In this document: piece by piece, positions 8,199-49,775 of the stretch
Numbering within the stretch: the stretch's first letter is position 1
Layout: each line of letters begins with the position of its first letter
NCBI GenBank assembly: GCA_036274495.1
Contig: DASUFP010000039.1
Location: forward strand, 11,303 to 75,302
Length of the DNA: 64,000 nucleotides
Direction of reading: 5' to 3'
Origin: Bacteroidia bacterium
Lineage (GTDB): Bacteria > Bacteroidota > Bacteroidia > AKYH767-A > OLB10
Notes under the pieces: generated by a model
Told to the model about the DNA's origin: nothing
What the model saw: only the letters and a program-made list of their open reading frames with translations
Databases searched by the model: none
Program-made: the position numbers and the translations under genes

Positions 8199-8215
8199 GA
8201 GGTCGCGAGCAGATT
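8199..8215. repeat. Distal att core: exact 17-bp direct repeat of the 3' end of tRNA-Cys (gaggtcgcgagcagatt)
   Basis: Identical to 49704-49720, which corresponds to the T-loop, 3' acceptor strand, discriminator and first C of the tRNA. Confidence 0.7.
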
Positions 8216-8274
8216 TCTGAGGGTCAGGGCTAATTGATTGATTTGACACGTTTTATGTCCATTTCCAATGAGCA

Positions 8275-8298
8275 GGTGAAGCAAAAGGTGAAGCAAAA
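8275..8298 (+). repeat. Candidate integrase arm-type sites (2x ggtgaagcaaaa) about 60 bp inside the distal att core
   Basis: Direct repeats ggtgaagcaaaaggtgaagcaaaa. The same motif family is found at 49563-49606 inside the other island end. Confidence 0.45.
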
Positions 8299-8325
8299 TG
8301 ACATTACATGTCCCATACAATGCAT

Positions 8326-11300
8326 TTAACGGGCTACGACAAATTTGAAATAGTACTTTTTTGCGCCGATTTGTAATGCTCCCAAATAAATACCATCATT
8401 CAAATTTTTAACATCCACCAAATAGGTACTTTCTTCCGGAGTTAAGCGTAGAGACCGTGTGCCTCCGGCAAGTTTCCCTTCAATGGTATAAATCTCAAGA
8501 TTAGTATTGAAAGACTTCTCAACATGTAACTCCAAAGTAAAACTGCCGGATGTAGGGTTAGGATAAATTGCCAAATTGTTATTGGAGTCTGAGTTTACCA
8601 ACCTTGGACTAATACAGATAGCAAGCTCTGAAGAAGTCAATGTACCGGAATTTAAGGATGTAAAATTCGCCAAATCACCCTCATTGCTAATAATCCCTGG
8701 ATTGTTTGTTTGTAAGTTTAAATTGGTTAACGTACTGGAGATATTGAGTTGGTTGCAGCCACTGTTACCTGTTGAATCAACTTTGACAATGTAGCCGGTT
8801 TGCGTTCCGGAATCAAGTATATGACCTGAAATAAAATACCCTCCATCCTGGCATTTTGTTAAAGATGATGCATGCTCATCAGTGAGGACATCACCATATG
8901 CCTTTGACCATATCAATACTCCGGTACTTGTAGTTCTGATGAGCAAAATCTGAGAACCATAACCCGAAACATTGCCGCTAAATGAAATCACATAGTCGCC
9001 ATTGTCTGCTTGAACAATTTCGCCTCTTTCATAGGAACTACTTATTGAAATCGGATTACTAATCCACTTAGACCAGGTCAGTGAACCATTAGCTCCAAGC
9101 TTCATCAGCGCAAATTTGTTATTGTAAGTCCCCATGACCATATACCCACCTTCAATAGATTTGACAATTGAACCACCTCCTATTTGGTCTGAAATATTAA
9201 AATGGGCCTTATTTTCCAATAAATTTCCCAATGTGTCATATTTCAAAAATAAGAATCCATCATAAAACCCATTGCCTGCATCATATTGCTCAACCGTTCC
9301 GATTGCTACGATTTCGTTATTGAATTGAATAATATCGCTAATAGAGCTGCTGTAACCATCAATAGTTCCGAAATTGTTTATCCAGTCCAGACTTCCTGAT
9401 GAGCCAATCTTTGCAACCATTGCTTTATACTCAAATGTTGCAGGGAAATACAATTTGCCACAAACCAAGTTCGCATTCGAGGTCATATTTATTACTTTGT
9501 TAAAGGTTGCCTGATAAGCGGGGTTCACAAAATTCGGGTCCTTTATTAAAAACCCATTTGCAATAACTCCTGCCGAATTAGCATGCATCAATATACCGCC
9601 AGTATAGCTATTGATTCCAGCGTTATATATTAATTGACCAGCACTGGAGGTGCCGCCACCGTTTGTCGGTAAAATATTCCAGGAATAGATAGTTCCAGTC
9701 GTCCAGTTATGTGCATTACCTTGGGATACACCATGAGCATCTGTTTTAATAATTAATGCATCTCCGGTTTGATTTGATATATTATTGTATAACCCAGTTA
9801 TAGTGTATCCTTGGTCAACATTTTGGAATGCATCGGTTAAAGCAAAGGCATTATTCACTTGTCGTTGAAAAGATATTGCTGGGCATAATTGACTTATTGT
9901 TGTTACTACTGACACTCTTGAACAGTTGAATCCATTAGTAACCGTGACAGAATACTGTCCGGAATCCTTTACCCATAAACTTTGAGCTGTTTCACCTAAT
10001 ATATCAATGTTGTTTTCCTTCCATTGATACGAATATGCATTTCCTATTGGAGCTACCAATTCTACACTATCGGGAGGACAAATACTTGACGAACCATTTA
10101 CAGTGATAGTTGCTGAAGGAGGCCCCGAAACAATTATTGTAGGTGAATTTCTCGTGCATCCGTTTGGACCAGTAATAGTGACTTTATAAGCGCCAGCCAT
10201 TGAAGCGTAATACGTTTGGTTTGTGGCACCAGAAATATTATTGCCATACCTCTTCCATTGATATGTATATCCAGTTCCTGTTCCCGTAGATAATAAAACT
10301 GAATCCCCAGTACAAAATCCTGTGTCCACGCTTGGTGTGATTGTGGCAGTAGGCAAGGGCAAGACTGTAACTAATATAGGATTCGACTTCTTTTTACAGC
10401 CACTTGAATTTGTGACCTCCACTTTATAGTTTCCGGTTGCTGTTGCTTGGTATGTTGAAGCAGTTGCACCGTTTAACGGATTGCTGTATTTATACCATTG
10501 GTAAGTGAGTCCTGAGCCCTGGTTTGCACTTAACGTGACATTACCTCCAGCACAAAATGTAGTGGCTCCTGAAGCGGTAATGCTTGCTGCGGGCTTGGGT
10601 ACAACGAATATCTCGACAGGTTGTGATTTCCTAAAACAGCCGTTGCTGTCTGTAACCAGAACTCTGTATTTACCGGCTGAAGTGGCCAGGTATGTTGAAC
10701 CCGATGTGGAATCAACCACATTACTGTATCTATACCACTTATAAGTATACCCTGTACCCACGTTGGCGTTTAGCGCTAAAGAGCTGCCAGCACAAATTGT
10801 TGTAGTACCTGCCGGAGTTATAGAGGCCGGTGGAGCTGATATTGATGTAACAAGTACAGGGGCTGAGTTTTTACTGCATCCGTTGGAATCAGTGACCCTC
10901 ACTTTGTAACTACCAGTTGTAGAAGCTGTATAACTGGAAGTTGTGGCTCCGTTTATTGCATTGCCGTATTTTGTCCATTGGTATGTCAATCCGAGCCCTG
11001 TGTTTGCATTAAGTACTACTGAGCCTCCCGCACAAAAATATGTGGAGCTAAGAGGGGTAGCGACTGCTTGTGGCAAAGAATGAACTGTAACTGGTAAAAA
11101 TGAAGATGTCGAACTACATCCTGAATTATTAGTTACAATTACTTGATAATTTCCACCAGTAGTGGCAGTATAAGAATCAGATGAAGCACCTTGAATTTCA
11201 ATTCCATCTTTTAGCCAACTGTATGTGTTTGTGCTACCTGTGTCAGTTTGAATAATCACGGAATTTCCGGAACAGAATGTTGTTGAACTTAATGGGGTTA

Positions 11301-14300
11301 TTGATGATGCAGGATTACCGACTACCGTTATATAATTGGGTATAGTAAGTGTATCTATCTTACCTGGAAAAGTTGCAATTAATGTGACATCGTATATTCC
11401 TGGAGTATTATATACAATTGATGGGTTGGGCAAAGTTGATGTTGAAGGTATACCTCCTGGGAATTGCCACATAACATTTGAAGCTACTGTAGATTGATTA
11501 ATAAATTCAACTATACCATTTGCACAAATCGAAGTATTATTGGCACCAATTCCTGCTATAAATATTGAAGTATCGCTATAGATGTGAATCGGCACAAATG
11601 CGGTAACACCATTATAAGACAGATTTAGAATAGAATCTCCTTGATTTTTTCCAATAATGAAGCCTTGTCCTAAATGCTGCGCAAGATTAGTGTCCAATGA
11701 AATTTGTAGATTTGGGTCATATGAAATATCTCTAATAATCCCATCACTAAATATTCCTTTGATATTTAATTTAGCAATGAGTCCTACAGTTAGTTCAAGC
11801 ACATTCGGTTCGGCGAATATTGAATCAATATAAGCATTGGTATTAACATTAATTTTTATTGAATCCAAACAGGTATAATTCAATGTATCACCACCCAAAC
11901 TAACCAAGTTGACTATTCCAATAGCTTCTTGAGGAATTATATAACTATACGTAAGATGTGCAGTGATAGAATCATGAAATTCCGGTTCAATAAAATTATT
12001 TCCGGCACCAAATAAAATTTTATTTACATTTCCATGACCTTGTACAGATACTGCAATTGTATCTCCAGCATTAAAACTTTGATAATTGCTTGGAAATTGA
12101 AAAGTTACACTATCGAGTAATGGCATTGAATATTGTATCGGCAATGAAACATTAATGGTTGCTGGATTAGGTTGAGGTTCATTAATTAGCCCTGGCTCAA
12201 ATCCATCCATTGTAAACTTTGATAAATCAATTGGACTACTATTAATTAAATCCGTTAATACTCCCAAGATGCTTGGATTTGATGAAGCTCCCATGTGGCA
12301 CTGGTCGCTATAATCAGTGTTACTAATTTGAAAGCTGGATTCTTGCGAATGAACATCTACGATGTTGTCATTCTCTTCGCCATTAAATATATCATGAACT
12401 GAATATGCATTTGCTGCAGCAAAAATAACAGCTCTGCAACCTCCATTTGATTCCAATATATTCTCATCTTGATTAGTTGAAATCAAATTTGAAGGCACTT
12501 TGTTCTGAATAGCAGTAGGAATATTTAAATTTGAAATTGCAGTACTATTTACTCTCAAATCTTCTATAGCCCCTTTATAAGGATTTCTTCCAGTTAGAAA
12601 CAGCATCGTTCTTACTTGGTCGTTATCTGGCCAACCTATGTTTCCATCAGGCCAATTCAAGTAATTTGCCATTTGAGAACCATAATGAGGTGTATTGACA
12701 GTAAGAAGTTTTTGAATTTCACCTTTATAATTTGAGCTTTGCAAATATAATCTTGCAAGTACTCCTCCCATGCTATGAGCAATTACTACTAATTTACCAC
12801 AGGAAAAATAATTTTGTCTTGCTTTATAAAATAAGTCTGTTCTACCATTTATTATTACAAATCTGTTTTGATTAAAATAGACATCATTTGTTGATTTATA
12901 ATCTAATCGAAGTGTAAGAAAGTTAGTTTGGTAGTTTACATCATTTGAGAATACGTTTCCAGGATATAAATTCGTAACAAGCAATTCCATTTCAAACTCC
13001 TTAAATGCATCTCTATCCCCCCACAATCCATGAACCATCATCAATGGAGCCCTATAAATGTGAATAGGGAAATTTATACCAGATATTGGTGTATTGCCAT
13101 TATATATTATTTGTAAGCTGCATTCTCTTTTTAATTGACTCAGCTCCATATATGTCGGATGATGATAAACGAATTCCAATTCATTTGTTCCAATTACTGT
13201 AGGTGTATCGAAATATCCATATTTCTCAATGTCGTTTTGAATTTGACCATTTTCATTAAGTAATCTCAAGTTAATTGTTGAAATATCTGTTGCAAAAACT
13301 CGAATTCTGGTCGCAGCAGAACCATCGGCACAGATTTTAACTGGATTTGATGTGGCAAATGGGCTACCAGCATAAAGTGTTAATGGCTGAGCAAGTGCAG
13401 GAATATTGCTAACTTGATTGATAAAAGTGATATCATTAACAGATGGAGGCAGAGTATTTACCGTCGCATATCCATAGTCACAATCATTACAGGTAGACTC
13501 GAACCCATTTATATAAACTTTACATGCATAATTGCCACTCACAGTTGCCGTGAATGAAGCATTTGCACCAAGAGCCGTTCCAGTACAAGAAGTTCCTGCA
13601 TACCATTTATACGCATAACTTCCACCTGAGCCTCCTGTAGCGATGCAAGTCATTAGTACTGACCCAGTCCCTGTATTATCATTTACATTTGAAGTTGGGC
13701 TTGAACAAGAAGATGTTATGGTTGCCATTCCATAGTCACAGGAAAAACAAGTTGATTCAAATCCTGAAATATATGCTTTGCAGGCATAGTTTCCGGATAC
13801 AGTTGTGAGATAAGTTGAGTTCGTTCCAATAGGAATTCCGGAACATGAAGTGCCACTATACCATTTGTAAAGAACACTACCACCAGACCCACCGGAAGTG
13901 ATGCATGTTAAAGTTACATTTGGATTGCCTGAACTATTATTCACTGTTGCAATAGGTGAAGTACAACCACCTGGTGCAATTAAATAGGGTCCACCACTGG
14001 TCATACCATCACTTACCCATCCGGTCAATTTTTGTGTTGTTCCTCCACTACTTGTATAGCAATTTGGTGTCAAATAAACTTCATACCAATTGTCCCCATT
14101 GATAACTTGTGGAGAAGAGGTGGTTCTTGCAAGCTTTTGATTTGGCTCAAAAGAAGCCCATTGGTAAGCATAACCAGTATTATATATCCATGTTTGTGAC
14201 CCGTTTGCAGAATTTTTGATTAATACTCCATTGATTGCGCTTGGCTGAACAATTAAATAATTATTTGGTGTACTGGAAATCCCAAAGAAATTTGTAGCCA

Positions 14301-14565
14301 CAAATGCCGTTGTAGGGTATCCTGCTTGTCCATGTGCATTAGGTATATCAAATTCGTACCAAGTATAACCACAGTTTGAACCAGTTGTGTTTATTACCAC
14401 AAATGAATGAGGGTCATTAACTTGTCCAAAAGATGTTGCTGACGTGCAATTTGCAGCACGGATATTTACATTTGTTCCATTGCATTTGTAGACAGATTGG
14501 GCAAAGGAATTTGAAAAAAGCAAGCAAAGATTAACTATTGTTAAAACGAGTGTTATACCTTTCAT
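8326..14565 (-). CDS. Giant (2079 aa) T9SS-secreted protein with an alpha/beta-hydrolase (lipase-like GxSxG) domain, beta-propeller-like repeats and multiple Ig-like repeats
   Basis: N-terminal signal peptide MKGITLVLTIVNLCLLFSNSFAQ. The AHSMGG nucleophile elbow lies in the central region. Repeated ...YQWxKxG..I.GATxSxYTAxxxGxYxVxVTxxNGC... Ig-like modules follow. The C-terminus IYPNPTSGSFTLEL...YLGALQIGAKKYYFKFVV is a T9SS C-terminal domain. Confidence 0.75.
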   Translation of the reverse strand: MKGITLVLTIVNLCLLFSNSFAQSVYKCNGTNVNIRAANCTSATSFGQVNDPHSFVVINTTGSNCGYTWYEFDIPNAHGQAGYPTTAFVATNFFGISSTPNNYLIVQPSAINGVLIKNSANGSQTWIYNTGYAYQWASFEPNQKLARTTSSPQVINGDNWYEVYLTPNCYTSSGGTTQKLTGWVSDGMTSGGPYLIAPGGCTSPIATVNNSSGNPNVTLTCITSGGSGGSVLYKWYSGTSCSGIPIGTNSTYLTTVSGNYACKAYISGFESTCFSCDYGMATITSSCSSPTSNVNDNTGTGSVLMTCIATGGSGGSYAYKWYAGTSCTGTALGANASFTATVSGNYACKVYINGFESTCNDCDYGYATVNTLPPSVNDITFINQVSNIPALAQPLTLYAGSPFATSNPVKICADGSAATRIRVFATDISTINLRLLNENGQIQNDIEKYGYFDTPTVIGTNELEFVYHHPTYMELSQLKRECSLQIIYNGNTPISGINFPIHIYRAPLMMVHGLWGDRDAFKEFEMELLVTNLYPGNVFSNDVNYQTNFLTLRLDYKSTNDVYFNQNRFVIINGRTDLFYKARQNYFSCGKLVVIAHSMGGVLARLYLQSSNYKGEIQKLLTVNTPHYGSQMANYLNWPDGNIGWPDNDQVRTMLFLTGRNPYKGAIEDLRVNSTAISNLNIPTAIQNKVPSNLISTNQDENILESNGGCRAVIFAAANAYSVHDIFNGEENDNIVDVHSQESSFQISNTDYSDQCHMGASSNPSILGVLTDLINSSPIDLSKFTMDGFEPGLINEPQPNPATINVSLPIQYSMPLLDSVTFQFPSNYQSFNAGDTIAVSVQGHGNVNKILFGAGNNFIEPEFHDSITAHLTYSYIIPQEAIGIVNLVSLGGDTLNYTCLDSIKINVNTNAYIDSIFAEPNVLELTVGLIAKLNIKGIFSDGIIRDISYDPNLQISLDTNLAQHLGQGFIIGKNQGDSILNLSYNGVTAFVPIHIYSDTSIFIAGIGANNTSICANGIVEFINQSTVASNVMWQFPGGIPSTSTLPNPSIVYNTPGIYDVTLIATFPGKIDTLTIPNYITVVGNPASSITPLSSTTFCSGNSVIIQTDTGSTNTYSWLKDGIEIQGASSDSYTATTGGNYQVIVTNNSGCSSTSSFLPVTVHSLPQAVATPLSSTYFCAGGSVVLNANTGLGLTYQWTKYGNAINGATTSSYTASTTGSYKVRVTDSNGCSKNSAPVLVTSISAPPASITPAGTTTICAGSSLALNANVGTGYTYKWYRYSNVVDSTSGSTYLATSAGKYRVLVTDSNGCFRKSQPVEIFVVPKPAASITASGATTFCAGGNVTLSANQGSGLTYQWYKYSNPLNGATASTYQATATGNYKVEVTNSSGCKKKSNPILVTVLPLPTATITPSVDTGFCTGDSVLLSTGTGTGYTYQWKRYGNNISGATNQTYYASMAGAYKVTITGPNGCTRNSPTIIVSGPPSATITVNGSSSICPPDSVELVAPIGNAYSYQWKENNIDILGETAQSLWVKDSGQYSVTVTNGFNCSRVSVVTTISQLCPAISFQRQVNNAFALTDAFQNVDQGYTITGLYNNISNQTGDALIIKTDAHGVSQGNAHNWTTGTIYSWNILPTNGGGTSSAGQLIYNAGINSYTGGILMHANSAGVIANGFLIKDPNFVNPAYQATFNKVINMTSNANLVCGKLYFPATFEYKAMVAKIGSSGSLDWINNFGTIDGYSSSISDIIQFNNEIVAIGTVEQYDAGNGFYDGFLFLKYDTLGNLLENKAHFNISDQIGGGSIVKSIEGGYMVMGTYNNKFALMKLGANGSLTWSKWISNPISISSSYERGEIVQADNGDYVISFSGNVSGYGSQILLIRTTSTGVLIWSKAYGDVLTDEHASSLTKCQDGGYFISGHILDSGTQTGYIVKVDSTGNSGCNQLNISSTLTNLNLQTNNPGIISNEGDLANFTSLNSGTLTSSELAICISPRLVNSDSNNNLAIYPNPTSGSFTLELHVEKSFNTNLEIYTIEGKLAGGTRSLRLTPEESTYLVDVKNLNDGIYLGALQIGAKKYYFKFVVAR

Positions 14566-14813: not shown

Positions 14814-15614
14814 TTGGCTAAGAAGTACATTTATCGCCTAAATATTGTGATTTTTAGGTTTAGAAAAGTTCAACCCATGAATAATGTCATTCCAATTGTG
14901 ATTGCCTTTCATCCTTCAACCAGCAGATTCATTCACATTGATGAAGCCAGTAATGGACTATCTTGTAATTGTGTTTGCATTCAATGCAATGAAAAGCTTG
15001 AAGCCATACAAGGCAATAAAAGAAAGAGGCATTTCCGGCACCACGTTAATACCAACTGCGTAGGAGCAAAGGAAACTGCCCTTCATGAGTTAGGTAAGCA
15101 AATACTGGTTGAAAATAATCGGATTAATATCCGTAACCATGGTATCATTACATATTCCAATGCAATTGCTGAAAAAAGATTAGAAAAATATCGACCAGAT
15201 GTTACTGCGTTTTATGAAGGTCAACCTATATATTTCGAAATTTTTGTGTCTCATGCTGTTGATAAAGAGAAGGCCAAATTTTTCTCTGACAACAAAATTA
15301 AATCCTTAGAAATTGATTTAAGCAAAAGCTTGACGGCCAATTTTGATGAAATAAAACAAATGGTTTTGGAAAAGACTCAACTGCAAACCGTATTCTATTG
15401 GGAAGATATTTCCGAATTGCCTTTAATTGATAGGAAGTATGATGTCAGATTTTTTGAAAGCCTTATTTTATTCTTAGTTATTCTCTTGGCTTTCATTGGC
15501 ATCCTAAAACTCATGAAAAACAAAAACAAATTAAATTATACCTTCATCGCAAAATCTTCATATCAAAAGCTGAAAAACAAACCTTATGGCCTACGAAAAA
15601 CCTATTACAATTAA
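14814..15614 (+). CDS. CoiA-like family protein (competence protein CoiA-like predicted nuclease) with C-terminal hydrophobic segment. The start could be the downstream Met at 14874
   Basis: Motif LSCNCVCIQCNEKLEAIQGNKRKRHFRHHVNTNCVGAKETALHELGKQIL matches the CoiA N-terminal Zn-ribbon/HFAH/EH signature. The gene overlaps the next gene by 29 bp. Confidence 0.5.
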   Translation: MAKKYIYRLNIVIFRFRKVQPMNNVIPIVIAFHPSTSRFIHIDEASNGLSCNCVCIQCNEKLEAIQGNKRKRHFRHHVNTNCVGAKETALHELGKQILVENNRINIRNHGIITYSNAIAEKRLEKYRPDVTAFYEGQPIYFEIFVSHAVDKEKAKFFSDNKIKSLEIDLSKSLTANFDEIKQMVLEKTQLQTVFYWEDISELPLIDRKYDVRFFESLILFLVILLAFIGILKLMKNKNKLNYTFIAKSSYQKLKNKPYGLRKTYYN

Positions 15615-19450: not shown

Positions 19451-19453
19451 AAA

Positions 19454-19649: not shown

Positions 19650-19679
19650 GATACACACAATGATAAATAAAATAATCAA

Positions 19680-22120: not shown

Positions 22121-22132
22121 ACCTCAATTTAA

Positions 22133-37476: not shown

Positions 37477-37485
37477 TTTCACGGG

Positions 37486-37790: not shown

Positions 37791-37794
37791 TATC

Positions 37795-38877: not shown

Positions 38878-38882
38878 TTTTT

Positions 38883-42711: not shown

Positions 42712-44202
42712 TTGAAAGTATTACTGGATACAAATATTATTATTCATAGAGAAGCAAGTCGGGTAATCAACCAGGATATTGGAATCTTATTTAATTGGCT
42801 GGATAGACTACATTATATAAAATGCGTTCATCCACTTTCTGCAGACGAATTAGGTCGACATCAGGATATAAAGACCGTGCAAACTATGCATGCAAAGTTG
42901 CAGAATTACCAAATTTTGCAAACACCAGCACCCCTACATGAAAAAGTAAAACAAATAAGTTCTGGAATTGATGTTTCACCAAATGACATTGAAGATACAA
43001 AGCTTTTAAATGAGGTGTTTTGTGAAAGAGTAGATTTTCTAATTTCAGAAGATAAGAAAATTCACGCCAAAGCTGCTTTACTTGGAATTTCACCGAAAGT
43101 TTTTAGAATAGATTCCTTTTTAGAAAAGGTCACTGCAGAAAATCCCGATTTTGTAAATTATCAGGTCCTTTCTGTAAGAAGGGATTATTTTGGAAACATA
43201 AATCTTAATGATGAATTCTTTGATAGCTTTAGAGGTGACTATGTAGGATTTGACAAATGGTATAACGGGAAAGCTGGTGACAACGAAAAGGCATATGTTT
43301 GTTATGAAGAAGGCACTTTGAAAGCGTTTTTATTCCTCAAAGTAGAAAATGAAAATGAAAACTATTCTGAATTAAATCCGGGTTTTCCCAAAAAGAAAAG
43401 ATTAAAAATCGGCACCTTCAAAGTTGTAAGCAATGGATTACGTTTAGGCGAAAGGTTTCTAAAAATTATATTCGACAATGCCCGGCAATATAAAGTTGAT
43501 GAAATATATGTCACCATTTTTGATAAGCGGCCCGAATTGCTAAGCCTCATTAATCTACTTGAGAAATTTGGTTTTAGGTATCATGGTGAGAAAACATCTC
43601 AATCAGGAATTGAAAAAGTATATGTTCGTGATTTTTCTAAAATTACTGATGACCAAAACCCCAAAAATACATTTCCCTGGCTTTCCAAAACAAGTGATGT
43701 ATATATTATACCAATACGTCCTGAATATCATACCGATTTATTACCTGATTCAATGTTAAGAACTGAATCAGCCATCAATTTTATAGAAAATGAACCTTAT
43801 CGGAACGCTATTAGCAAAGTTTATGTGTCACATTCACAAACCCGTAATTTGAGAACAGGAGATATAATTGTTTTTTACCGTAGCGGAGGTATACATAAGG
43901 GTGTAGCAACTACAATTGGAATAGTTGAGAATGTGATTATTCCATCTACACTTGAAGAACTTATCAGTGTGTGCCGAAAACGGACCGTATTAACTGAATC
44001 CGAATTGGCAGAATACTGGAACAGGTTTTCAAACTTAAAACCATTCGTGATTAACTTCTTATATGCATTCTCATTTAAGAAACGGATGAATTTAAAAGGT
44101 ATGTTAGATAATGGTATACTTGCTAACATGGATATGGTGAAAACTATTACCAAAATGGAAAGAGAATCCTTAGTTAATCTAATAATTTCGTGCGGAATAT
44201 GA
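42712..44202 (+). CDS. Multidomain protein: N-terminal PIN-like nuclease domain + GNAT acetyltransferase-like domain + C-terminal ASCH/PUA-like domain
   Basis: MKVLLDTNIII...ISED gives the PIN acidic residues. RLKIGTFKVVSNGLRLGERFLK fits the GNAT R-x-x-G-x-G/A acetyl-CoA loop. The C-terminal VYIIPIRPEYHTDLLPD...GDIIVFYRSGG...IGIVENV resembles the ASCH fold. Confidence 0.45.
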   Translation: MKVLLDTNIIIHREASRVINQDIGILFNWLDRLHYIKCVHPLSADELGRHQDIKTVQTMHAKLQNYQILQTPAPLHEKVKQISSGIDVSPNDIEDTKLLNEVFCERVDFLISEDKKIHAKAALLGISPKVFRIDSFLEKVTAENPDFVNYQVLSVRRDYFGNINLNDEFFDSFRGDYVGFDKWYNGKAGDNEKAYVCYEEGTLKAFLFLKVENENENYSELNPGFPKKKRLKIGTFKVVSNGLRLGERFLKIIFDNARQYKVDEIYVTIFDKRPELLSLINLLEKFGFRYHGEKTSQSGIEKVYVRDFSKITDDQNPKNTFPWLSKTSDVYIIPIRPEYHTDLLPDSMLRTESAINFIENEPYRNAISKVYVSHSQTRNLRTGDIIVFYRSGGIHKGVATTIGIVENVIIPSTLEELISVCRKRTVLTESELAEYWNRFSNLKPFVINFLYAFSFKKRMNLKGMLDNGILANMDMVKTITKMERESLVNLIISCGI

Positions 44203-44570
44203 GAGTTGTTTTATCTATTAAACCGGAATTTGCAGACAAAATATTCGATGGCTCAAAGAAATTTGAGTTTCGAAGGAGCATCTTCAAAAATCCTGATGTA
44301 AGTCGAATCGTTGTGTATGCCTCTTCCCCGGTTCAAAAAATAATTGGAGAGTTTGAGGTTGAACAAATTTTAGTACATGACTTAAAAACTCTTTGGAATA
44401 TAACAAAGGATTATTCAGGTATTTCAAAGAATTATTTTTATGAATATTTTAATGATAAGGAGAAGGGATTCGCTATTAAAATTAAAAACACTAAGAAATA
44501 TAAAAAGCCGAAGTGTATACGAAAGGATTTCAACCTATTTCCCCCACAGTCCTTCTTGTATTTAATTTAA
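44190..44570 (+). CDS. ASCH domain protein
   Basis: VVLSIKPEFADKIFDGSKKFEFRR is the classic ASCH N-terminal signature. It overlaps the preceding gene by 13 bp. Confidence 0.7.
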   Translation: MRNMRVVLSIKPEFADKIFDGSKKFEFRRSIFKNPDVSRIVVYASSPVQKIIGEFEVEQILVHDLKTLWNITKDYSGISKNYFYEYFNDKEKGFAIKIKNTKKYKKPKCIRKDFNLFPPQSFLYLI

Positions 44571-44950: not shown

Positions 44951-45811
44951 ATGGAAGATAAGAAAACTCTCACGTTACGTGAATTTAACCTTTGCGGTGA
45001 AATTTCCATTCATAATTTCCGTACAGAAGCTGTCGGACTAACAGGCGACATAACAGATTTGTTAAGAATATACCTTGGACTTGATACCGATGAAGAAATT
45101 GAAAAGCTAATTTACAATTACCCTGTGGCCCTTGGCGAGGATGAAGAGGACGAAATTCACTATTTTAATTCAAAAACTTGGGTTGAAAAAACAATTTATA
45201 GGGCAATTGAAAAACTTTTTAAGCAGACCGGGTATGAGGTAGATTTCCATCCAGCGTTAGTATTGACACTTTTTTTGAAAAACAGATATAACTTTATTAA
45301 CATACCGGTTGATTTATTTGAAAAGGTTCAGTCGCCATATGAATTATATCAGTTTTTTAAAACTACGGATGATTCAACTTTGTCCAGTTTGAAAATAAAA
45401 TTAAGTACTTCGGTCAACACAAATATTTTAACATTGGATATTAAGTCCTATCAATTCATGAAACGGGCTATTGAATATTATTCAAATTCCCCAGATGGAG
45501 AACATTACATTGATGATATAAAATCGGATTACGCAATCATGTCAGGTATCATCGAAAAAATGCAGCAAGTAAATCAAAATAATATAAAACAAGCTAAGAA
45601 CGACTTTCGACATTACTTCATTCCAATCGTGGATAACTATTATCATAAAACAATTACTAATGCAAGACTAAGGTCACTTGTTATTGGGGAATTGCTGACA
45701 ATGATTATACCAAAGAGCATGGTTTTTAAAGGGAATTCCAGTAATATTGAAGCTAAGGCGGACTTCTATTATCGAAATATTCGGAAATATTTTCCGAAAA
45801 CAAAAAAATAG
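44951..45811 (+). CDS. Hypothetical protein
   Basis: 286-aa ORF. Confidence 0.35.
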   Translation: MEDKKTLTLREFNLCGEISIHNFRTEAVGLTGDITDLLRIYLGLDTDEEIEKLIYNYPVALGEDEEDEIHYFNSKTWVEKTIYRAIEKLFKQTGYEVDFHPALVLTLFLKNRYNFINIPVDLFEKVQSPYELYQFFKTTDDSTLSSLKIKLSTSVNTNILTLDIKSYQFMKRAIEYYSNSPDGEHYIDDIKSDYAIMSGIIEKMQQVNQNNIKQAKNDFRHYFIPIVDNYYHKTITNARLRSLVIGELLTMIIPKSMVFKGNSSNIEAKADFYYRNIRKYFPKTKK

Positions 45812-45994
45812 AGTAATTGTCTATGGTGTGGATATATTTTCAGAATTATAACACCATTGCAATCGCAATATGTTAAGGTTGTTACTGCTTATTTCCTGAG
45901 AAATGCTACTTATCGAATTTCGCAAATATTTTAAAGTAGCAACTGGGAAATTAACACCTGATAATTTTGCACTGAATTTCAAACTCAGTGTAAA

Positions 45995-46585
45995 ATGGAC
46001 ACAAACAAAGGTGGCAGAATTGCAAAAACTGCTTCAGACTATTTCGGCATCACTTCAGTAAGAGATGCTAATTTCAGAGAATTAAAAAGGAGGTTCGGAA
46101 GTGCCGGAGTGGATATTTATCTGCTCATTCTCCAATTGATGGCGCAATCTTCATTTTTTCTTTTTCCACTAAACCCTGTTAATCTTCGTAGAATCCAGGA
46201 AGAGGACCTTGTCAATCCGGAGAAATTCGATGCGGTTGTAAAATATTGCGTCGAAGAACTCCAGATTCTGGACAAGCCGTTATATGATAATGGGTATTTA
46301 TTCAGCGTGAACTTCGTCCGGACATTTAATAAAGCGGGTTTGTTTCGGCAACGCAAATACACAGCTGTTCATGTACTGAATGCCGCTAATCACTTTCGAC
46401 CTGGTCACCCACCCTTGACTCTTGAGGATAGGTTGGAAATGATAGCCCAGGGTAATCTTCCATCCGGAAATGGGCATGACAATAGTATTCAGGATGCTGA
46501 TGAGGATAAGCCTACCCCTCCTAAAAAGGATAATAATAATGATGACAATATACCTCTGCTGGGTGAAAATGAGCTTCCGTTCTGA
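45995..46585 (+). CDS. DUF4373 (Lin1244/Lin1753-like N-terminal domain) protein, typical of Bacteroidetes phage/integrative-element replication modules
   Basis: N-terminus GGRIAKTASDYFGITSVRDANFRELKRRFGSAGVDIYLLILQLM follows the DYF..D.N.R...+...G..G..IY pattern. It sits directly upstream of the integrase. Confidence 0.4.
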   Translation: MDTNKGGRIAKTASDYFGITSVRDANFRELKRRFGSAGVDIYLLILQLMAQSSFFLFPLNPVNLRRIQEEDLVNPEKFDAVVKYCVEELQILDKPLYDNGYLFSVNFVRTFNKAGLFRQRKYTAVHVLNAANHFRPGHPPLTLEDRLEMIAQGNLPSGNGHDNSIQDADEDKPTPPKKDNNNDDNIPLLGENELPF

Positions 46586-46587
46586 CC

Positions 46588-47922
46588 ATGTCTTCTACAG
46601 TAATAACGGAAAAGTCAGCGTATCCGATGGTGACCTATACACCATCCTTTATGACCATAAACGAGCGAAAATGCAGGCTGACAGTACGTTTTCATCTGAA
46701 AATCACCAAAGCCAATCATGGTGAATTCCCACTTTATCTCCGCATCATATATAAAAGAATTAAAGTTGAACTCAGCACAGGACTATTAATTAGTCCGGAT
46801 GAATGGAACTTCAAAACCGGGGAACTGCGCTACAAACACCAGCATACAGAGGTACATCAAAAACTAATTGCATTGGAATCGCAAGTGTACCAGATTTCAA
46901 AGCATCGTGAATTAAAAGGTCTGAAAGTCAGCTCATCAATAATAAAACAAATAATAAGAAACAAAATGAATATAGACACACCGATAGGGCATGGGAGTTT
47001 ACTTATAGCCTACCTTAAATCGTATATCGAATTTATCAAGGGAATCAATAAAGAGTATACTCCTGGAACTGTACAACACTATGTAACTCTGGTAGGCCAC
47101 CTTGAAAATTTCATAAAGTCATTGGGATTAATCGACATCCCGATACATGTGGTTGACACTCGGTTTATTCAGGGGTTCGATGACTTCTTAATGACCTGGA
47201 TAAATCCAAAACTGGGTCGTGCTATGAATCGGAATACCGCAAACCGCAATCATTCAAAATTGAACCCTTTACTAACACGAGCAGTGTTGGAGAAGTTAAT
47301 TCATTCGAACCCGTATGCCGGTTTCAAACTGAAACGAGCGAAGCCAAAGTCTGATTACTTGGTGGACCACGAAATTCAACTTCTTATAAATAAGCGACTC
47401 GATAACAATTCGCTGGAAACCGTCCGTCTGTATCTTTTGATGTCCATATTCATGGGTGGGGTTCGATTCAGCGACCTTAAAAATGTTAAGTCTTACAATA
47501 TCATCGAGGAGGATGGATTCTACTTTTTGCATATTCACCGACAGGAGAAAACGGATGCCAGCGTGCTCACCCCATTGCTTCCATGTGCAGTTGAAATATT
47601 TAGTAAGTACCAATGGTGCCAAGATGAAGAGGGTTACATATTGCCGAGACTCACTCAACAGAAATTGAATGAATATTTGAAAACATTGGCTGATTTATGT
47701 GGTGTCCAAAAGAGGATGACTCACAAAATAGCCAGGCATACATTCGCCACAACCATATGCAGTCAGCACGGTGTACCACGTCATTTAATTGCTGCCTGGC
47801 TGGGCCATTATTCTCAAATCCGAACCACCGACATTTATGCTCGTGTGACAAAGCAAGAATCAATGATTTGGGTCAAAAAACTTTGGGAAATCTATAACAA
47901 GCCTGAATACATTCTTAAGTAA
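46588..47922 (+). CDS. int: Tyrosine-type site-specific integrase (Bacteroidetes phage-integrase family with N-terminal arm-binding domain)
   Basis: Catalytic region ARHTFATTICSQHGVPRHLIAAWLGHYSQIRTTDIYARV carries the Arg/His-x-x-Arg/Tyr motifs. Full length 444 aa with N-terminal DNA-binding domain. Confidence 0.9.
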   Translation: MSSTVITEKSAYPMVTYTPSFMTINERKCRLTVRFHLKITKANHGEFPLYLRIIYKRIKVELSTGLLISPDEWNFKTGELRYKHQHTEVHQKLIALESQVYQISKHRELKGLKVSSSIIKQIIRNKMNIDTPIGHGSLLIAYLKSYIEFIKGINKEYTPGTVQHYVTLVGHLENFIKSLGLIDIPIHVVDTRFIQGFDDFLMTWINPKLGRAMNRNTANRNHSKLNPLLTRAVLEKLIHSNPYAGFKLKRAKPKSDYLVDHEIQLLINKRLDNNSLETVRLYLLMSIFMGGVRFSDLKNVKSYNIIEEDGFYFLHIHRQEKTDASVLTPLLPCAVEIFSKYQWCQDEEGYILPRLTQQKLNEYLKTLADLCGVQKRMTHKIARHTFATTICSQHGVPRHLIAAWLGHYSQIRTTDIYARVTKQESMIWVKKLWEIYNKPEYILK

Positions 47923-47943: not shown

Positions 47944-48789
47944 ATGTACGACTTTGACCGTTATTACAACCATTGCCCAAAAACTTACCTCCTGAAGGCT
48001 ATCGGAGGAAAATTTCGTTCCCGTTCAAAAATTGTTGGTGAACTCATTAGACTCATTCGTGCCAACCAACGCTATGAATTCAGGGAGCCATTTGCATTCG
48101 GAGGAGCCATCACATTTGAAATGATGCGACAAACCAACATTCATAAATATTGGATGAATGACAGGGACCCAGCTGTGACCTGCTTTTGGATAGCCGTGAG
48201 GGATTCTGCCGACTTGTTGATTGAACACCTGGTTCAATCAACCCCGAATGACAAGCAGTATGATGAATACCGGCATCAATTGCTGGCATTGAGGAGTGTT
48301 CCCAGAAGCAAGTACGAGATTGTATATGTCGCTCTAATGAAATTAGTGATTCAAAGGCTCTCTTACTCTGGTTTGGGTACCATGGCATCACAGCCTTGTA
48401 AAAATAAAAGCGTGCGCTGGAACCGTGAGAATCTCACCAGTGAGTTAGAGATATTGTCAGCATTAATGAATGACAATACAGTCCGAATTACCAATCATGA
48501 TTTTGAGCCCATGCTTACCGACACTTCACGGCAGGCGTTAATTTATTTAGACCCTCCATATTTTCATAAGGGTAAGGGTCTATATCAGTATAACATGGAT
48601 GTGGACGACCATGTTCGGCTGGCTTGCATTTTAAAAAATACGCCTCACCCATTTGTGCTCAGTTATGACGATTGCGAGGAGGTCCGTGACCTCTATGGTG
48701 GTTGGACTAAGTTTAATTTGCTTCCATTTGAGTATACCAGCAAGAATCAGCGCAACACTCAAAATGAATTACTCATCATTCGTAAATAA
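47944..48789 (+). CDS. Dam-family (D12 class) N6-adenine DNA methyltransferase, orphan
   Basis: AIGGKF and EPFAFGGAITFE (motif I), and IYLDPPYF (DPPY motif IV). Confidence 0.8.
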   Translation: MYDFDRYYNHCPKTYLLKAIGGKFRSRSKIVGELIRLIRANQRYEFREPFAFGGAITFEMMRQTNIHKYWMNDRDPAVTCFWIAVRDSADLLIEHLVQSTPNDKQYDEYRHQLLALRSVPRSKYEIVYVALMKLVIQRLSYSGLGTMASQPCKNKSVRWNRENLTSELEILSALMNDNTVRITNHDFEPMLTDTSRQALIYLDPPYFHKGKGLYQYNMDVDDHVRLACILKNTPHPFVLSYDDCEEVRDLYGGWTKFNLLPFEYTSKNQRNTQNELLIIRK

Positions 48790-48797: not shown

Positions 48798-49193
48798 ATG
48801 CACATACAAATCAATCAAAAATATTATTATGAAGACGAACTGACCTTCATTGCCGTTTATCAAAACATGGAAGACCAACATTGTTATTATCACTACCGTG
48901 AAACTTTATTGTTGGCCGGGGATGGAACATACATTTTAAAATGTCAAGGGAATCCTGGTTCTCGATATCACAGAACTAAACATGGAGTTCCTGTCAGGTC
49001 GCTTTATTTCAAGCATGAACCTCATCCTGGAATTTGGCTGTTGCAACACGGGCATCAGCGTTTGGCCGGCTTAATGTTTACTGAGTTGCGGCCTTCAATT
49101 GAAGCTGAACTTCTTTCAAAATATATCTATACTGAACCAAAAAACTGCGATTCACTATACGACTCACTGATAACTCCCAATACAGATATTTAA
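48798..49193 (+). CDS. Hypothetical protein
   Basis: 131-aa ORF inside the island near the tRNA end. Confidence 0.3.
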   Translation: MHIQINQKYYYEDELTFIAVYQNMEDQHCYYHYRETLLLAGDGTYILKCQGNPGSRYHRTKHGVPVRSLYFKHEPHPGIWLLQHGHQRLAGLMFTELRPSIEAELLSKYIYTEPKNCDSLYDSLITPNTDI

Positions 49194-49197
49194 AAAA

Positions 49198-49524
49198 ATG
49201 AATTCACAACAAGCATTAGAAGCAATTTGCAATGAAGCGAACCGACAGGTTGATTCAAATAACTGGTTTTCGGTTGAAAGGGAAATTGATGGATATAAAA
49301 TGATGCCCGGTTTTGAAAATCATGAATGTGACGAACCAGATTACAGGGAACGAATTGAAGATTTTAACTATACAGGGAAAATCTTCATAGCAGCACCTTT
49401 TATTAATAAATTAATTGAAGTCCCGGAGGAATTGTATGATTCGGCTGACGACATTGTTGCTTTTTCTTACTGGATGCAATATGTTGGAAATGCTATTGTG
49501 GAAAGCTACCGTGACATCCGATAA
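49198..49524 (+). CDS. Hypothetical protein
   Basis: 108-aa acidic ORF. Confidence 0.3.
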   Translation: MNSQQALEAICNEANRQVDSNNWFSVEREIDGYKMMPGFENHECDEPDYRERIEDFNYTGKIFIAAPFINKLIEVPEELYDSADDIVAFSYWMQYVGNAIVESYRDIR

Positions 49525-49562: not shown

Positions 49563-49606
49563 GGTGAAACATTTTATACCTCTGGTGAAACAAAAGGTGA
49601 AACAAA
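49563..49606 (+). repeat. Candidate integrase arm-type sites (3x ggtgaaaca...) about 100-140 bp inside the tRNA-proximal att core
   Basis: ggtgaaacatttt, ggtgaaacaaaa, ggtgaaacaaa. Same motif family and orientation as 8275-8298. Confidence 0.45.
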
Positions 49607-49636
49607 TGGGGTTATTTTATAGATATTTTCAGAATT

Positions 49637-49690
49637 ACCCGAAAAAAAGAAACCCTGGTTATCAATGAGATACCAGGGTTCTTATTTGGA
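49637..49690. terminator. Bidirectional rho-independent terminator (hairpin aaccctggt/accagggtt flanked by A-run and T-run)
   Basis: Stem 49651-49659 / 49672-49680 with a 12-nt loop. On the minus strand it is followed by tctttttttcggg, directly downstream of the tRNA 3' end. Confidence 0.55.
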
Positions 49691-49702
49691 GGTTACCCTC
49701 CC

Positions 49703-49775
49703 GGAGGTCGCGAGCAGATTCGAACTGCTGTACAAGGTTTTGCAGACCTCTACCTAGCCTCTCGGTCACGCGACC
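49703..49775 (-). tRNA. tRNA-Cys (anticodon GCA)
   Basis: Minus-strand sequence GGTCGCGTGACCGAGAGGCTAGGTAGAGGTCTGCAAAACCTTGTACAGCAGTTCGAATCTGCTCGCGACCTCC. It has a 7-bp acceptor stem, a T-arm AGCAG-TTCGAAT-CTGCT, and an anticodon loop CTGCAAA with U33 and GCA at positions 34-36. The variable loop is short. Confidence 0.85.

What the first reader, a model, noticed from the sequence alone, without database searches (positions are those of the whole stretch)
8199..49775. About 41.5-kb defense island integrated into tRNA-Cys with precise att repeats and candidate arm-type sites
Seen in sequence: a tRNA-Cys(GCA) lies at 49703-49775 (minus strand). Its 3'-terminal 17 nt (plus-strand gaggtcgcgagcagatt, 49704-49720) recur exactly at 8199-8215 in the same orientation. 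A full-length tyrosine integrase with an N-terminal arm-binding-type domain (46588-47922) and a DUF4373 gene sit just inside the tRNA end. Direct repeats of ggtgaaRcaaaa occur 60-140 bp inside both ends (8275-8298, 49563-49606), as expected for P and P' arm sites of an integrated element. The interior is visibly AT-richer than either flank. It is packed with restriction-modification genes, a retron, pVip, Fic, the PIN-GNAT protein and a second degraded integrase (23801-24388), which suggests a composite history. Established knowledge: tRNA 3' ends are classic integration sites and the duplicated segment marks attL/attR.
Basis: partly seen in the sequence, partly recalled or inferred. Interest (0 to 1): 0.6.

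Follow-up and report, generated by a model that had tools for sequence, protein, structure and literature searches.

The report
Defence island inserted in tRNA-Cys
A 41.5-kb block of mostly anti-phage genes was inserted by its own integrase into the end of a cysteine tRNA gene of an uncultured Bacteroidota bacterium; it is a clean example of a well-known kind of mobile island, and it belongs to a small family that has not been described.

Summary
tRNA-Cys(GCA) lies at 49705-49775 (-). Its last 16 nt plus one base (GAGGTCGCGAGCAGATT) recur exactly once, at 8199-8215, where chance predicts none. The 41.5 kb between is 36.6% GC, against 44.5-44.9% in the flanks. Synteny with the nearest relatives stops at the tRNA.

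An intact Bacteroidota-type tyrosine integrase sits 1.8 kb inside attR. It has arm-binding, SAM-like and catalytic domains. Eight related elements from other samples, with integrases 50-67% identical, all abut tRNA-Cys. All carry the same triple (A)GGTGAA repeat 106-115 bp from the core. The window has two further copies 59 bp inside attL.

The orphan 17-mer at attL is followed by a hairpin and T-run like the native tRNA-Cys terminators of relatives. In one related pair (L148 occupied, L008 without an island), flank homology of 93.7% starts at the first base of the core.

The cargo is mostly defence: GmrSD/HEC-05, a retron-type RT, RtcR-like plus DUF2130, type I R-M, pVip, Fic, PDC-M11 and Dam. 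It also includes a 2079-aa T9SS protein. Cargo modules are shuffled between backbones. I found no relaxase, conjugation or phage structural genes.

Verdict: a real but ordinary tRNA-integrated defence island, a new member of a known kind. Excision was not tested.

The parts
8167..8195 (-). Native tRNA-Cys intrinsic terminator, now separated from the tRNA: a 13-pair hairpin followed by TTTGTTTTG.
   Evidence: Terminator scan. It aligns in position with the terminators that follow unoccupied tRNA-Cys genes in L002, L008, L013, L033 and L073.
8199..8215 (+). attL core: the orphaned original 3' end of tRNA-Cys (17 bp).
   Evidence: Exact second copy of 49704-49720; none expected by chance.
8275..8298 (+). 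Distal-arm candidate arm-type sites: GGTGAAGCAAAA, two tandem copies, 59 bp inside attL, non-coding.
8326..14565 (-). Cargo: 2079-aa secreted protein with a PKD domain, a PGAP1-like lipase domain and a T9SS Por_Secre_tail.
   Evidence: Pfam. GC is like the island's.
15586..17361 (+). Cargo: GmrSD-type (type IV) restriction enzyme, matching PADLOC HEC-05.
   Evidence: Pfam GmrSD_N 2.6e-33; PADLOC HEC-05 5e-221.
17412..21692 (-). Cargo: retron-type reverse-transcriptase operon. In order it encodes a 120-aa Zn-ribbon protein, a 205-aa protein, a DUF4407 protein, the RT and a 288-aa protein.
   Evidence: RVT_1 and DUF4407; PADLOC retron RT models down to 1e-107.
23801..24388 (-). Second tyrosine recombinase, 195 aa, catalytic domain only, unrelated to the main integrase.
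   Evidence: Pfam 6e-23; no BLASTP similarity to the main integrase; residues R46, K70, H141, R144, H171 and Y180 present.
24991..27806 (.). Cargo: RtcR-like CARF-AAA-HTH regulator (-) and a divergent DUF2130 gene (+).
   Evidence: Pfam; PADLOC RtcR_PspF2 1.7e-126.
27845..31544 (+). Cargo: fused N6-methyltransferase, specificity domain and HATPase protein (848 aa), plus a 389-aa protein of unknown function.
   Evidence: Pfam; PADLOC MTase_I and Specificity_I.
31552..41861 (+). Cargo: type I R-M operon hsdM-hsdS-...-hsdR, with a 743-aa unknown protein, pVip (36607-37476) and Fic (37795-38877) embedded between hsdS and hsdR.
   Evidence: Pfam; PADLOC pVip 1e-138. The module is shared at 86-90% nt identity with L082 and L089.
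42712..44570 (+). Cargo: PDC-M11A (weak PIN_3 match at the N-terminus) and PDC-M11B (ASCH), a candidate defence pair.
   Evidence: PADLOC 2.7e-205 and 5e-52; Pfam.
44951..46585 (+). Backbone: a 286-aa protein of unknown function and a DUF4373/Lin1244_N protein. The stop codon of the DUF4373 gene abuts the integrase start codon.
   Evidence: Conserved next to the integrase in L082, L085, L086, L088 and L089. PHROG replication-initiator N-domain, 1.6e-6.
46588..47922 (+). Backbone: tyrosine integrase with Arm-DNA-bind_5, Phage_int_SAM_5 and catalytic domains.
   Evidence: Pfam. Catalytic K321, R383, H407 and Y417 are invariant in the clade. A 100% identical NCBI MAG protein exists.
47944..48789 (+). 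Orphan D12 (Dam-type) N6-adenine methyltransferase inserted in the backbone; absent from L082.
   Evidence: Pfam 7.6e-22.
48798..49524 (+). Backbone: a 131-aa protein from a conserved family of unknown fold and function, and a 108-aa ORF.
   Evidence: Homologues follow the integrase in L082, L083, L085 and L088. The family has 9 clusters. AF2 model pLDDT 84.6 with no informative fold match.
49563..49607 (+). Integrase-proximal candidate arm-type sites: GGTGAAACATTT, 9 nt, then GGTGAAACAAAA and GGTGAAACAAAT.
   Evidence: The same triple with the same spacing occurs in 9 elements. GGTGAA is invariant in 28 of 29 units. The third unit lies 106-115 bp from the core.
49651..49680 (.). Element-borne hairpin flanked by A and T runs: a two-way terminator that now terminates tRNA-Cys.
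   Evidence: Fold z = -4.16. The stem covaries among elements: CCCTGGT/ACCAGGG, GCCTGCT/AGCAGGC and GGCTGCA/TGCAGCC.
49704..49720 (+). attR core, which is the 3' end of the functional tRNA-Cys.
49705..49775 (-). tRNA-Cys(GCA), intact.
   Evidence: ARAGORN; Rfam 55 bits.

Best explanation
This is a 41,505-bp integrative genomic island. Its own heterobivalent tyrosine integrase inserted it by site-specific recombination into the 3' end of tRNA-Cys(GCA).

Recombination sites. The common core is 17 bp, running from the T-loop to the discriminator base plus one more base. The element's copy now completes the tRNA and forms attR (49704-49720). The element also supplies a replacement terminator hairpin. 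The original tRNA 3' end and its native terminator were pushed 41.5 kb away to form attL (8199-8215).

Arm sites. The integrase's N-terminal arm-binding domain is inferred to bind five direct (A)GGTGAA(A/G)CA repeats. Three lie in the integrase-proximal arm and two in the distal arm. Together they would build the intasome.

Organisation. The element has a roughly 5-kb conserved backbone: a protein of about 290 aa, a DUF4373 protein, the integrase and a protein of about 133 aa. Next to the backbone sits a large exchangeable cargo region, which here carries at least eight defence systems or candidates plus a T9SS-secreted protein.

What is shown and what is inferred.
- Shown: the sequence anatomy, conservation across relatives, and the synteny and composition breaks.
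- Inferred: which protein binds the repeats, present-day excision competence, and how the element moves between cells. It has no recognisable transfer genes.
For: - The 17-mer is exact, unique and in direct orientation.
- The tRNA is intact.
- GC is 0.366 in the island against 0.445 and 0.449 in the flanks, with the switch at the junctions.
- The right flank (49.9-59.4 kb) is syntenic with L002 and L008 up to the tRNA. Nothing from 1-49.7 kb has a homologue beyond tRNA-Cys in the 80 gltX loci.
- In those relatives tRNA-Cys is followed by housekeeping genes, and none of the 80 gltX loci holds an integrase related to this one.
- Read on the tRNA strand, attL is the 17-mer followed by a 13-pair hairpin and a T-run. 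Unoccupied tRNA-Cys loci have the same layout.
- The integrase has all three domains and conserved catalytic residues.
- Eight further elements, with integrases 50-67% identical, were found: L082, L083/84, L085, L086/87, L088, L089-92, L147 and L148/149. All sit with the same polarity against tRNA-Cys or its 3' end, in at least four additional host contexts.
- All of them have the triple GGTGAA repeat at 106-115 bp from the core. Positions 1-6 are invariant in 28 of 29 units. This includes the positions that would be codon wobble sites in the elements where an ORF reads through the repeats.
- L148 (occupied) and L008 are 93.7% identical over 9.5 kb, and the homology begins exactly at the first base of the core.
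- The same cargo occurs on different backbones and different cargo on the same integrase. L089 shares Fic-hsdR at 86% nt identity with the window while its integrase is only 53% identical at the protein level. L090 has an integrase identical to L089's but different upstream genes.
Against: - No conspecific genome or contig with an empty site joining this left flank to tRNA-Cys could be found. The species appears on only one other contig.
- No attP or attB junction evidence exists, so excision is not shown.
- The distal-arm repeat could not be checked in any relative. A metagenome scan for the attL architecture found nothing.
- No recombination directionality factor was identified. The 131-aa backbone protein has no informative fold match.
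- In L082, L083, L085 and L148 the proximal repeats lie in frame in the 3' end of the roughly 133-aa gene. A coding role is therefore not formally excluded.
- The 'unoccupied' partner L008 still carries a relic arm dimer, so it is not a pristine attB.
Confidence: 0.85

Rival explanations
1. The island did integrate site-specifically but is now a fixed, immobile relic. The att cores and arm repeats survive only because the insertion is recent, and the element no longer excises.
For: No excision evidence and no identifiable RDF. Related elements show decay: truncated integrases in L147 and L148 and a bare arm-site scar in L008.
Against: The cores match at 17 of 17 positions. All five repeat units are intact. 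The integrase is full length with conserved catalytic residues. The integrase operon and its terminator are intact.
Confidence: 0.25
2. The element is a mobilizable element (IME, NBU-like), a conjugative element, or a phage satellite or prophage, rather than a plain genomic island. Transfer or replication functions would be hidden among its unannotated ORFs. The DUF4373 protein could be a replication initiator and the 286-aa protein a mobilization protein.
For: DUF4373 matches a PHROG replication-initiator N-domain at 1.6e-6. A sister element, L083, carries a BT4734-like_N gene (weak Pfam hit) and a helicase gene instead of defence cargo. The 131-aa protein has one structural neighbour, an uncharacterised phage protein. 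About ten island ORFs have no annotation.
Against: Pfam on the 33 main island ORFs and PHROGs on ten unannotated ones found no relaxase, T4SS, coupling protein, capsid, terminase or portal family. The integrase clade is absent from IMG/VR, where the best match is at most 34% identical and no contig has the att architecture. Reference phages and plasmids give less than 30% identity.
Confidence: 0.2
3. The GGTGAA repeats are not integrase arm sites. Two alternatives exist. They could encode a functional C-terminal GExFY..GExKGEx peptide of the roughly 133-aa protein. Or they could be binding sites (iterons or an operator) for another backbone protein such as DUF4373.
For: In six of nine representative family members the protein ends with the translated repeats. 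Nothing links the integrase to this sequence directly.
Against: In the window, L086, L089 and L147 the repeats lie outside the gene, yet they keep their sequence, spacing and distance to the core. The would-be third codon positions never vary (T in 29 of 29, A in 29 of 29), although the integrases are only 50-67% identical. Two copies lie in non-coding DNA on the other side of the core, as expected for the P and P' arms. The integrase has an Arm-DNA-bind_5 domain.
Confidence: 0.12
4. There was no site-specific insertion. The 17-mer would be a chance or duplicated tRNA fragment, and the AT-rich region a chromosomal defence hotspot built by gradual accretion.
For: Defence genes do accumulate at hotspots. 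The internal GC is heterogeneous, 0.31-0.42.
Against: No copies are expected by chance. An integrase and conserved arm repeats lie at fixed distances from both cores. Eight sister elements show the same polarity at tRNA-Cys. The L148/L008 homology break falls exactly at the core.
Confidence: 0.02

Closest known systems
NBU1 and NBU2 (Bacteroides mobilizable transposons / IMEs) and relatives such as Tn6031
   Same: They are Bacteroidota elements. A tyrosine integrase inserts them site-specifically into the 3' end of a tRNA gene: tRNA-Leu for NBU1, tRNA-Ser for NBU2 and tRNA-Pro for Tn6031 (PMC5704250). The integrase sits at the tRNA-proximal end, and accessory proteins are needed for excision.
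   Different: The target here is tRNA-Cys. No MobP relaxase or oriT is recognisable. The element is about four times larger, and its cargo is defence systems rather than resistance genes. The integrase is only distantly related to reference Bacteroides integrases, at less than 30% identity to any plasmid or phage record. I did not compare it directly with IntN1.
Riemerella anatipestifer 10K genomic island
   Same: A Flavobacteriales genomic island next to a tRNA gene, flanked by perfect direct repeats. It has an IntN1-like tyrosine integrase beside the tRNA and no transfer genes. Integration and excision were shown experimentally (PMC6764341).
   Different: It targets tRNA-Arg with a 53-bp repeat and is 10 kb long. 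Its integrase alone suffices for excision. The element here has a 17-bp core, conserved arm repeats, an arm-binding domain and 41.5 kb of mainly defence cargo.
Heterobivalent integrases with arm-type sites (lambda Int, CTnDOT IntDOT)
   Same: An N-terminal arm-binding domain is combined with core-binding and catalytic domains. [quoted passage not shown] Here there are five repeats, split three and two.
   Different: Binding has not been tested here. CTnDOT is conjugative and has low target specificity, and lambda is a phage. This element is tRNA-specific and has neither set of functions.
Defence islands carried on chromosomally integrated mobile elements
   Same: Several unrelated defence systems are clustered on an integrase-bearing element. 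The general phenomenon is documented (PMC10201445; title and abstract only).
   Different: This particular backbone (a protein of about 290 aa, DUF4373, the integrase and a protein of about 133 aa, targeting tRNA-Cys) did not turn up in my literature searches.

Membership tests
tRNA-integrated genomic island (tyrosine-integrase type) | An intact tRNA gene at one boundary, and a direct repeat of its 3' end at the other. | tested here: met
   tRNA-Cys at 49705-49775. The exact 17-mer occurs at 8199-8215 and 49704-49720 only.
tRNA-integrated genomic island (tyrosine-integrase type) | An integrase gene inside the element near the tRNA-proximal end. | tested here: met
   Integrase at 46588-47922, 1.8 kb from attR, with three domains and catalytic residues.
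tRNA-integrated genomic island (tyrosine-integrase type) | Composition differs from the flanking chromosome. | tested here: met
   GC 0.366 against 0.445 and 0.449; the tetranucleotide class switches at both junctions.
tRNA-integrated genomic island (tyrosine-integrase type) | Absent from the same site in related genomes (an empty attB). | tested here: inconclusive
   No conspecific genome is available. In relatives whose GltX is 65-73% identical, synteny stops at the tRNA and no related integrase follows. For a sister element, L148 against L008 shows the homology break exactly at the core, but L008 keeps an arm-site scar.
tRNA-integrated genomic island (tyrosine-integrase type) | Excision to a circle with a restored attB. 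| not testable with these tools
   This needs PCR or read-level data.
Heterobivalent (arm-binding) tyrosine integrase system | An N-terminal arm-binding domain in the integrase. | tested here: met
   Pfam Arm-DNA-bind_5, 1.7e-9, above the curated cut-off.
Heterobivalent (arm-binding) tyrosine integrase system | Repeated arm-type sites on both sides of the core, conserved among related elements. | tested here: met
   Three units lie in the proximal arm and are conserved in 9 elements at a fixed distance. Two units lie in the distal arm of the window. Conservation of the distal arm in relatives could not be tested.
Heterobivalent (arm-binding) tyrosine integrase system | The integrase binds the arm sites. 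| not testable with these tools
   This needs EMSA or footprinting.
Integrative mobilizable element (NBU-like IME) | Its own relaxase and/or oriT. | tested here: not met
   No relaxase or Mob family was found by Pfam on the 33 main island ORFs, or by PHROGs and NCBIfam on the unannotated ones. A divergent or novel relaxase among the ten or so unknown ORFs cannot be excluded.
Integrative conjugative element | A T4SS or mating-pore apparatus and a coupling protein. | tested here: not met
   No Tra, VirB or VirD4 families.
Prophage or phage satellite | Capsid, terminase or portal genes, or satellite hallmark genes; relatives in viral collections. | tested here: not met
   No structural genes. The integrase clade and the att architecture are absent from IMG/VR. 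The only hint is a weak match of DUF4373 to a phage replication-initiator N-domain.
Defence island | Several independent known defence systems clustered together. | tested here: met
   GmrSD/HEC-05, a retron-type RT, an RtcR-like protein, a methyltransferase-specificity fusion, type I HsdMSR, pVip and PDC-M11A/B.

The most novel reading that the evidence does not exclude
The backbone (a protein of about 290 aa, a DUF4373 protein, the integrase and a protein of about 133 aa) may define an undescribed family of tRNA-Cys-specific carriers of defence cargo in environmental Bacteroidota. These carriers move without any recognisable conjugation or mobilization genes. They might replicate after excision through the DUF4373 Rep-like protein, or hitch-hike on a helper in the manner of a satellite. 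Their integrase arm sites are embedded in frame in the 3' end of the conserved roughly 133-aa gene. Integrase binding could thereby be coupled to expression of an accessory factor with a new fold, such as a recombination directionality factor.
Probability: 0.2. Interest if true: 0.5.

Novelty: new member of a known kind. Interest (0 to 1): 0.3.

Why it matters
The island gives exact, sequence-defined boundaries for a 41.5-kb defence island in an uncultured Bacteroidota lineage. It also yields a reusable signature: the tRNA-Cys 17-bp core, the triple GGTGAA repeat at 106-115 bp and the DUF4373-integrase pair. That signature can locate sister islands in metagenomes, and their variable cargo can be mined for new defence genes. 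Several cargo ORFs here have no annotation; examples are the 743-aa protein beside pVip, the 389-aa and 267-aa proteins, and the partners of the retron RT.

The integrase with its attP could also become a tRNA-Cys-targeting integration tool for Flavobacteriales-like bacteria, as was done for the Riemerella island. In concept the finding adds nothing unexpected. tRNA-integrated islands that carry defence systems are textbook.

Tried and rejected
- Empty site in the same species. An exact attL/attB junction pattern scanned over the JGI metagenomes gave 0 hits. Exact-protein look-ups found FolB on only one other contig, the same island-bearing sequence, and the left-flank 199-aa protein on none.
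- Left ends of sister elements. A metagenome scan for the 17-mer, a gap of 45-75 nt and the arm dimer gave 0 hits. All sister contigs end before their left ends, so distal-arm conservation remains untested.
- Tandem or composite integration at the same att. There is no degenerate internal copy of the core or of the arm repeats, and no long internal repeats. I rejected this. The second recombinase is unrelated to the main integrase.
- Phage or plasmid origin. IMG/VR, INPHARED and PLSDB hold only distant integrases, at most 34% identical. The 42 IMG/VR hits to the arm dimer pattern lack the core and the triple repeat, so they are chance matches.
- Contig ends inside tRNA-Cys. The ends of eight sister contigs fall inside or just short of tRNA-Cys. 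I considered this as evidence of population heterogeneity and rejected it. A tRNA sequence shared among community members breaks assemblies anyway.
- Core-type inverted repeats around the reconstructed attP. They are not conserved among the elements, so I make no claim about them.


Full report
OBSERVATION

ARAGORN finds a single tRNA in the window, tRNA-Cys(GCA) at 49703-49775 on the minus strand. Rfam places it at 49705-49775 with 55 bits. The 17-mer GAGGTCGCGAGCAGATT occurs at 49704-49720 and at 8199-8215, both on the + strand. No other copy exists at up to 2 mismatches, and 100 dinucleotide-preserving shuffles gave none. At up to 4 mismatches there is still no copy inside the interval. The bases next to the repeat differ on both sides, so the repeat is exactly 17 bp. 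It covers the last 16 nt of the tRNA, from the 3' part of the T-loop to the discriminator, plus one more base.

GC content is 0.445 in the left flank, 0.366 between the repeats and 0.449 in the right flank. Three-kb tetranucleotide windows change class near both junctions.

GENE CONTENT

Pfam and PADLOC were run on the 33 main ORFs. Reading from attL, they give:
- a 2079-aa PKD and lipase protein with a T9SS sorting domain;
- GmrSD/HEC-05;
- a minus-strand operon with a retron-type reverse transcriptase and a DUF4407 protein;
- an ECF-type sigma factor;
- a 195-aa tyrosine recombinase;
- an RtcR-like CARF-AAA-HTH regulator with a divergent DUF2130 gene;
- a fusion of methyltransferase, specificity domain and HATPase;
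- hsdM-hsdS, then a 743-aa unknown protein, pVip and Fic, then hsdR;
- PDC-M11A/B;
- a 286-aa unknown protein, DUF4373/Lin1244_N and the integrase (Arm-DNA-bind_5, Phage_int_SAM_5 and Phage_integrase);
- a Dam-type methyltransferase, and ORFs of 131 aa and 108 aa.

No relaxase, conjugation or phage structural family was found.

THE HOST LOCUS

The integrase is 100% identical to a protein of an NCBI 'MAG TPA: Bacteroidia bacterium' on a 90-kb contig. One Logan contig, L001, carries the same sequence. The nearest species representatives are uncultured Bacteroidota whose GltX is at most 73% identical.

The order gltX-folB-tRNA-Cys is conserved in many of these relatives. The window's right flank (49.9-59.4 kb) is syntenic with L002 and L008 right up to the tRNA. 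Nothing from 1-49.7 kb has a homologue beyond tRNA-Cys in any of the 80 loci. In L002 and L008 the tRNA is followed by ordinary genes: T9SS lectins, DcuC and an RND efflux system. None of the 80 gltX loci holds an integrase related to this one.

The window's attL is informative when read on the tRNA strand. The 17-mer is followed after 3 nt by a 13-pair hairpin and TTTGTTTTG. This is the same layout as the terminators that follow tRNA-Cys in L002, L008, L013, L033 and L073, and the T-run columns are invariant in the alignment. The copy at 8199-8215 is therefore the original 3' end of the gene, still attached to its native terminator.

At attR the tRNA is followed instead by an element-borne hairpin at 49651-49680, flanked by A and T runs (fold z = -4.16). 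Its stem covaries among sister elements.

THE INTEGRASE FAMILY

A clade of integrases 50-67% identical to this one exists in metagenomes. I fetched the context of eight of them: L082, L083/84, L085, L086/87, L088, L089-92, L147 and L148/149.

In every case the integrase points towards tRNA-Cys, with one or two small ORFs between. tRNA-Cys or its 3' end is present wherever the contig reaches that far. Host flanks differ among the window, L085, L086 and L147; L148 shares the folB-gltX context. The association is therefore with the tRNA and not with its neighbourhood.

L148 gives a family-level occupied/unoccupied comparison. Its flank is 93.7% identical to L008 over 9,541 bp. The homology starts at L148 position 11457, the first base of the core, which corresponds to the last base of L008's tRNA.

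L008 is not pristine, however. Beyond its tRNA by 178 nt it keeps a GGTGAAACAAAAGGTGAAACA dimer and remnants of the element hairpin. No integrase lies within 7.6 kb. This looks like the scar of an earlier element.

ARM-TYPE SITES

All nine elements carry GGTGAA, 15 nt, then GGTGAAnnAAAAGGTGAA. The third unit lies 106-115 bp from the core. Among 29 units, positions 1-6 are invariant except for one A-to-G change, while the surrounding sequence diverges.

In L082, L083, L085 and L148 the repeats fall in frame (GGT GAA = Gly-Glu) in the 3' end of the conserved roughly 133-aa gene. Six of nine representatives of that protein family end in GExFY..GExKGEx. In the window, L086, L089 and L147 the repeats are non-coding, yet they keep their sequence and position. 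The would-be wobble positions never vary: T in 29 of 29 units and A in 29 of 29. The constraint therefore acts on the DNA.

The window has two more units (8275-8298) 59 bp inside attL, in non-coding DNA and in the same orientation. A reconstructed attP would thus carry three sites on one arm and two on the other. This matches the asymmetric arrangement known for heterobivalent integrases; attDOT has five IntDOT sites (PMC2817482). Together with the Arm-DNA-bind_5 domain, this makes integrase arm sites the best reading. Binding itself is inferred. I could not inspect the distal arm of any relative.

MOSAIC STRUCTURE

The conserved backbone consists of a protein of about 290 aa, a DUF4373 protein, the integrase and a protein of about 133 aa. 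The cargo differs between elements:
- L086 carries BREX genes.
- L088 carries a type I R-M system, GmrSD and UDG.
- L085 carries a type I R-M system and two GmrSD genes.
- L083 carries a BT4734-like_N gene (weak Pfam hit) and a helicase gene.

L082 shares the module of the 743-aa protein with pVip, and hsdR, at 88-90% nt identity with the window. It has NOV_C where the window has Fic, and it lacks PDC-M11 and Dam. L089 shares Fic-hsdR at 86% nt identity, although its integrase is only 53% identical at the protein level. L090 has the same integrase as L089 but different upstream genes.

The 'composite history' is therefore real. It reflects exchange of cargo modules, not tandem integration. There is no internal att remnant.

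COMPARISON WITH KNOWN ELEMENTS

The element works like the tRNA-targeting Bacteroidota elements NBU1 (tRNA-Leu), NBU2 (tRNA-Ser) and Tn6031 (tRNA-Pro) (PMC5704250). It also works like the Riemerella anatipestifer 10K island at tRNA-Arg, whose integrase-driven integration and excision were shown experimentally (PMC6764341).

It fails the IME and ICE membership tests, because no relaxase or T4SS was found. It shows no prophage or satellite hallmarks. It is best filed as a non-conjugative, integrase-bearing genomic (defence) island. The integrase clade is not represented in IMG/VR, INPHARED or PLSDB except by relatives at most 34% identical. My literature searches found no description of this backbone.

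WHAT REMAINS OPEN

- Excision and transfer have not been shown.
- No RDF was identified. The 131-aa protein gives a confident model (pLDDT 84.6) but no informative structural neighbour. The 286-aa protein could not be modelled.
- No conspecific empty site exists in the collections searched.

VERDICT

This is an ordinary tRNA-integrated defence island, preserved well enough that its cores, arms and both terminators can all be read. It belongs to a small uncharacterised family. Novelty: new member of a known kind. Interest: about 0.3.

Noticed in passing
window 7747-8134: A 115-bp tandem repeat of 3.4 copies at 92% identity lies in the left flank just outside attL. Each unit contains a GC-rich hairpin followed by GGGGATTTTTGTTTTT, which resembles the tail of the native tRNA terminator. 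Its function is unknown.
   Followed up: partly
window 1780-3128: 240-bp tandem repeats, about 4.9 copies at 82% identity. They probably encode Ig/PKD-like repeats of a large minus-strand gene that runs off the left end of the window.
   Followed up: no
window 48798-49193; L082 11317-11721; L083 11346-11753; L085 11744-12163; proteins P0124-P0131: The roughly 133-aa protein family downstream of the integrase usually ends with GExFY..GExKGEx. That is the in-frame translation of the integrase arm repeats. In some elements the arm sites therefore overlap the 3' end of the gene. The AF2 model (pLDDT 84.6) shows a beta-sheet domain plus three helices with no informative structural match.
   Followed up: partly
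L008 13881-14150: The 'unoccupied' tRNA-Cys locus of relative JAEUTI010000026.1 keeps a relic arm dimer (GGTGAAACAAAAGGTGAAACA) and a decayed element hairpin 178 nt beyond the tRNA. No integrase lies nearby. This looks like the scar of a lost island of the same family.
   Followed up: partly
window 23801-24388 (-): A 195-aa tyrosine recombinase made of the catalytic domain only, with all active-site residues present and a size like FimB/FimE. It could be an invertase rather than a decayed integrase. No convincing flanking inverted repeats were found.
   Followed up: partly
window 21700-22130: A 440-bp non-coding region lies upstream of the retron-type RT operon. It holds a pair of 60-nt direct repeats 101 bp apart (21872-21931 and 21973-22032, 73% identical). 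It might contain the retron ncRNA or regulatory sites. Rfam found nothing there.
   Followed up: no
window 31552-41861: In the type I R-M operon, three unrelated genes (a 743-aa unknown protein, pVip and Fic) sit between hsdS and hsdR. In the sister element L082, Fic is replaced by a NOV_C-domain gene at the same position. This suggests a swap site for effectors within the operon.
   Followed up: partly
window 45995-46585 and homologues (alignment A6): The DUF4373/Lin1244_N backbone protein has an invariant C-terminal (D/N)(E/N)LPF tail after a variable linker of low complexity. This looks like a short docking motif for a partner protein.
   Followed up: no
window 46588-47922 (alignment A3): In this integrase clade the canonical His of the HxxR box is replaced by Lys (THKIARH), with a His one position earlier. 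The change is conserved in all seven clade members aligned.
   Followed up: no
L085 12357-12395: A duplicated fragment of the 5' part of tRNA-Cys lies about 40 bp beyond the intact tRNA-Cys, on the host side of a sister element.
   Followed up: no
L001 end, corresponding to window ~44.69 kb: The independent Logan assembly of the same genome breaks at the junction between cargo and backbone, between PDC-M11B and the 286-aa gene. A short stretch there (44631-44699) is 78% identical to L082. It could be a recombination or strain-variation hotspot.
   Followed up: no
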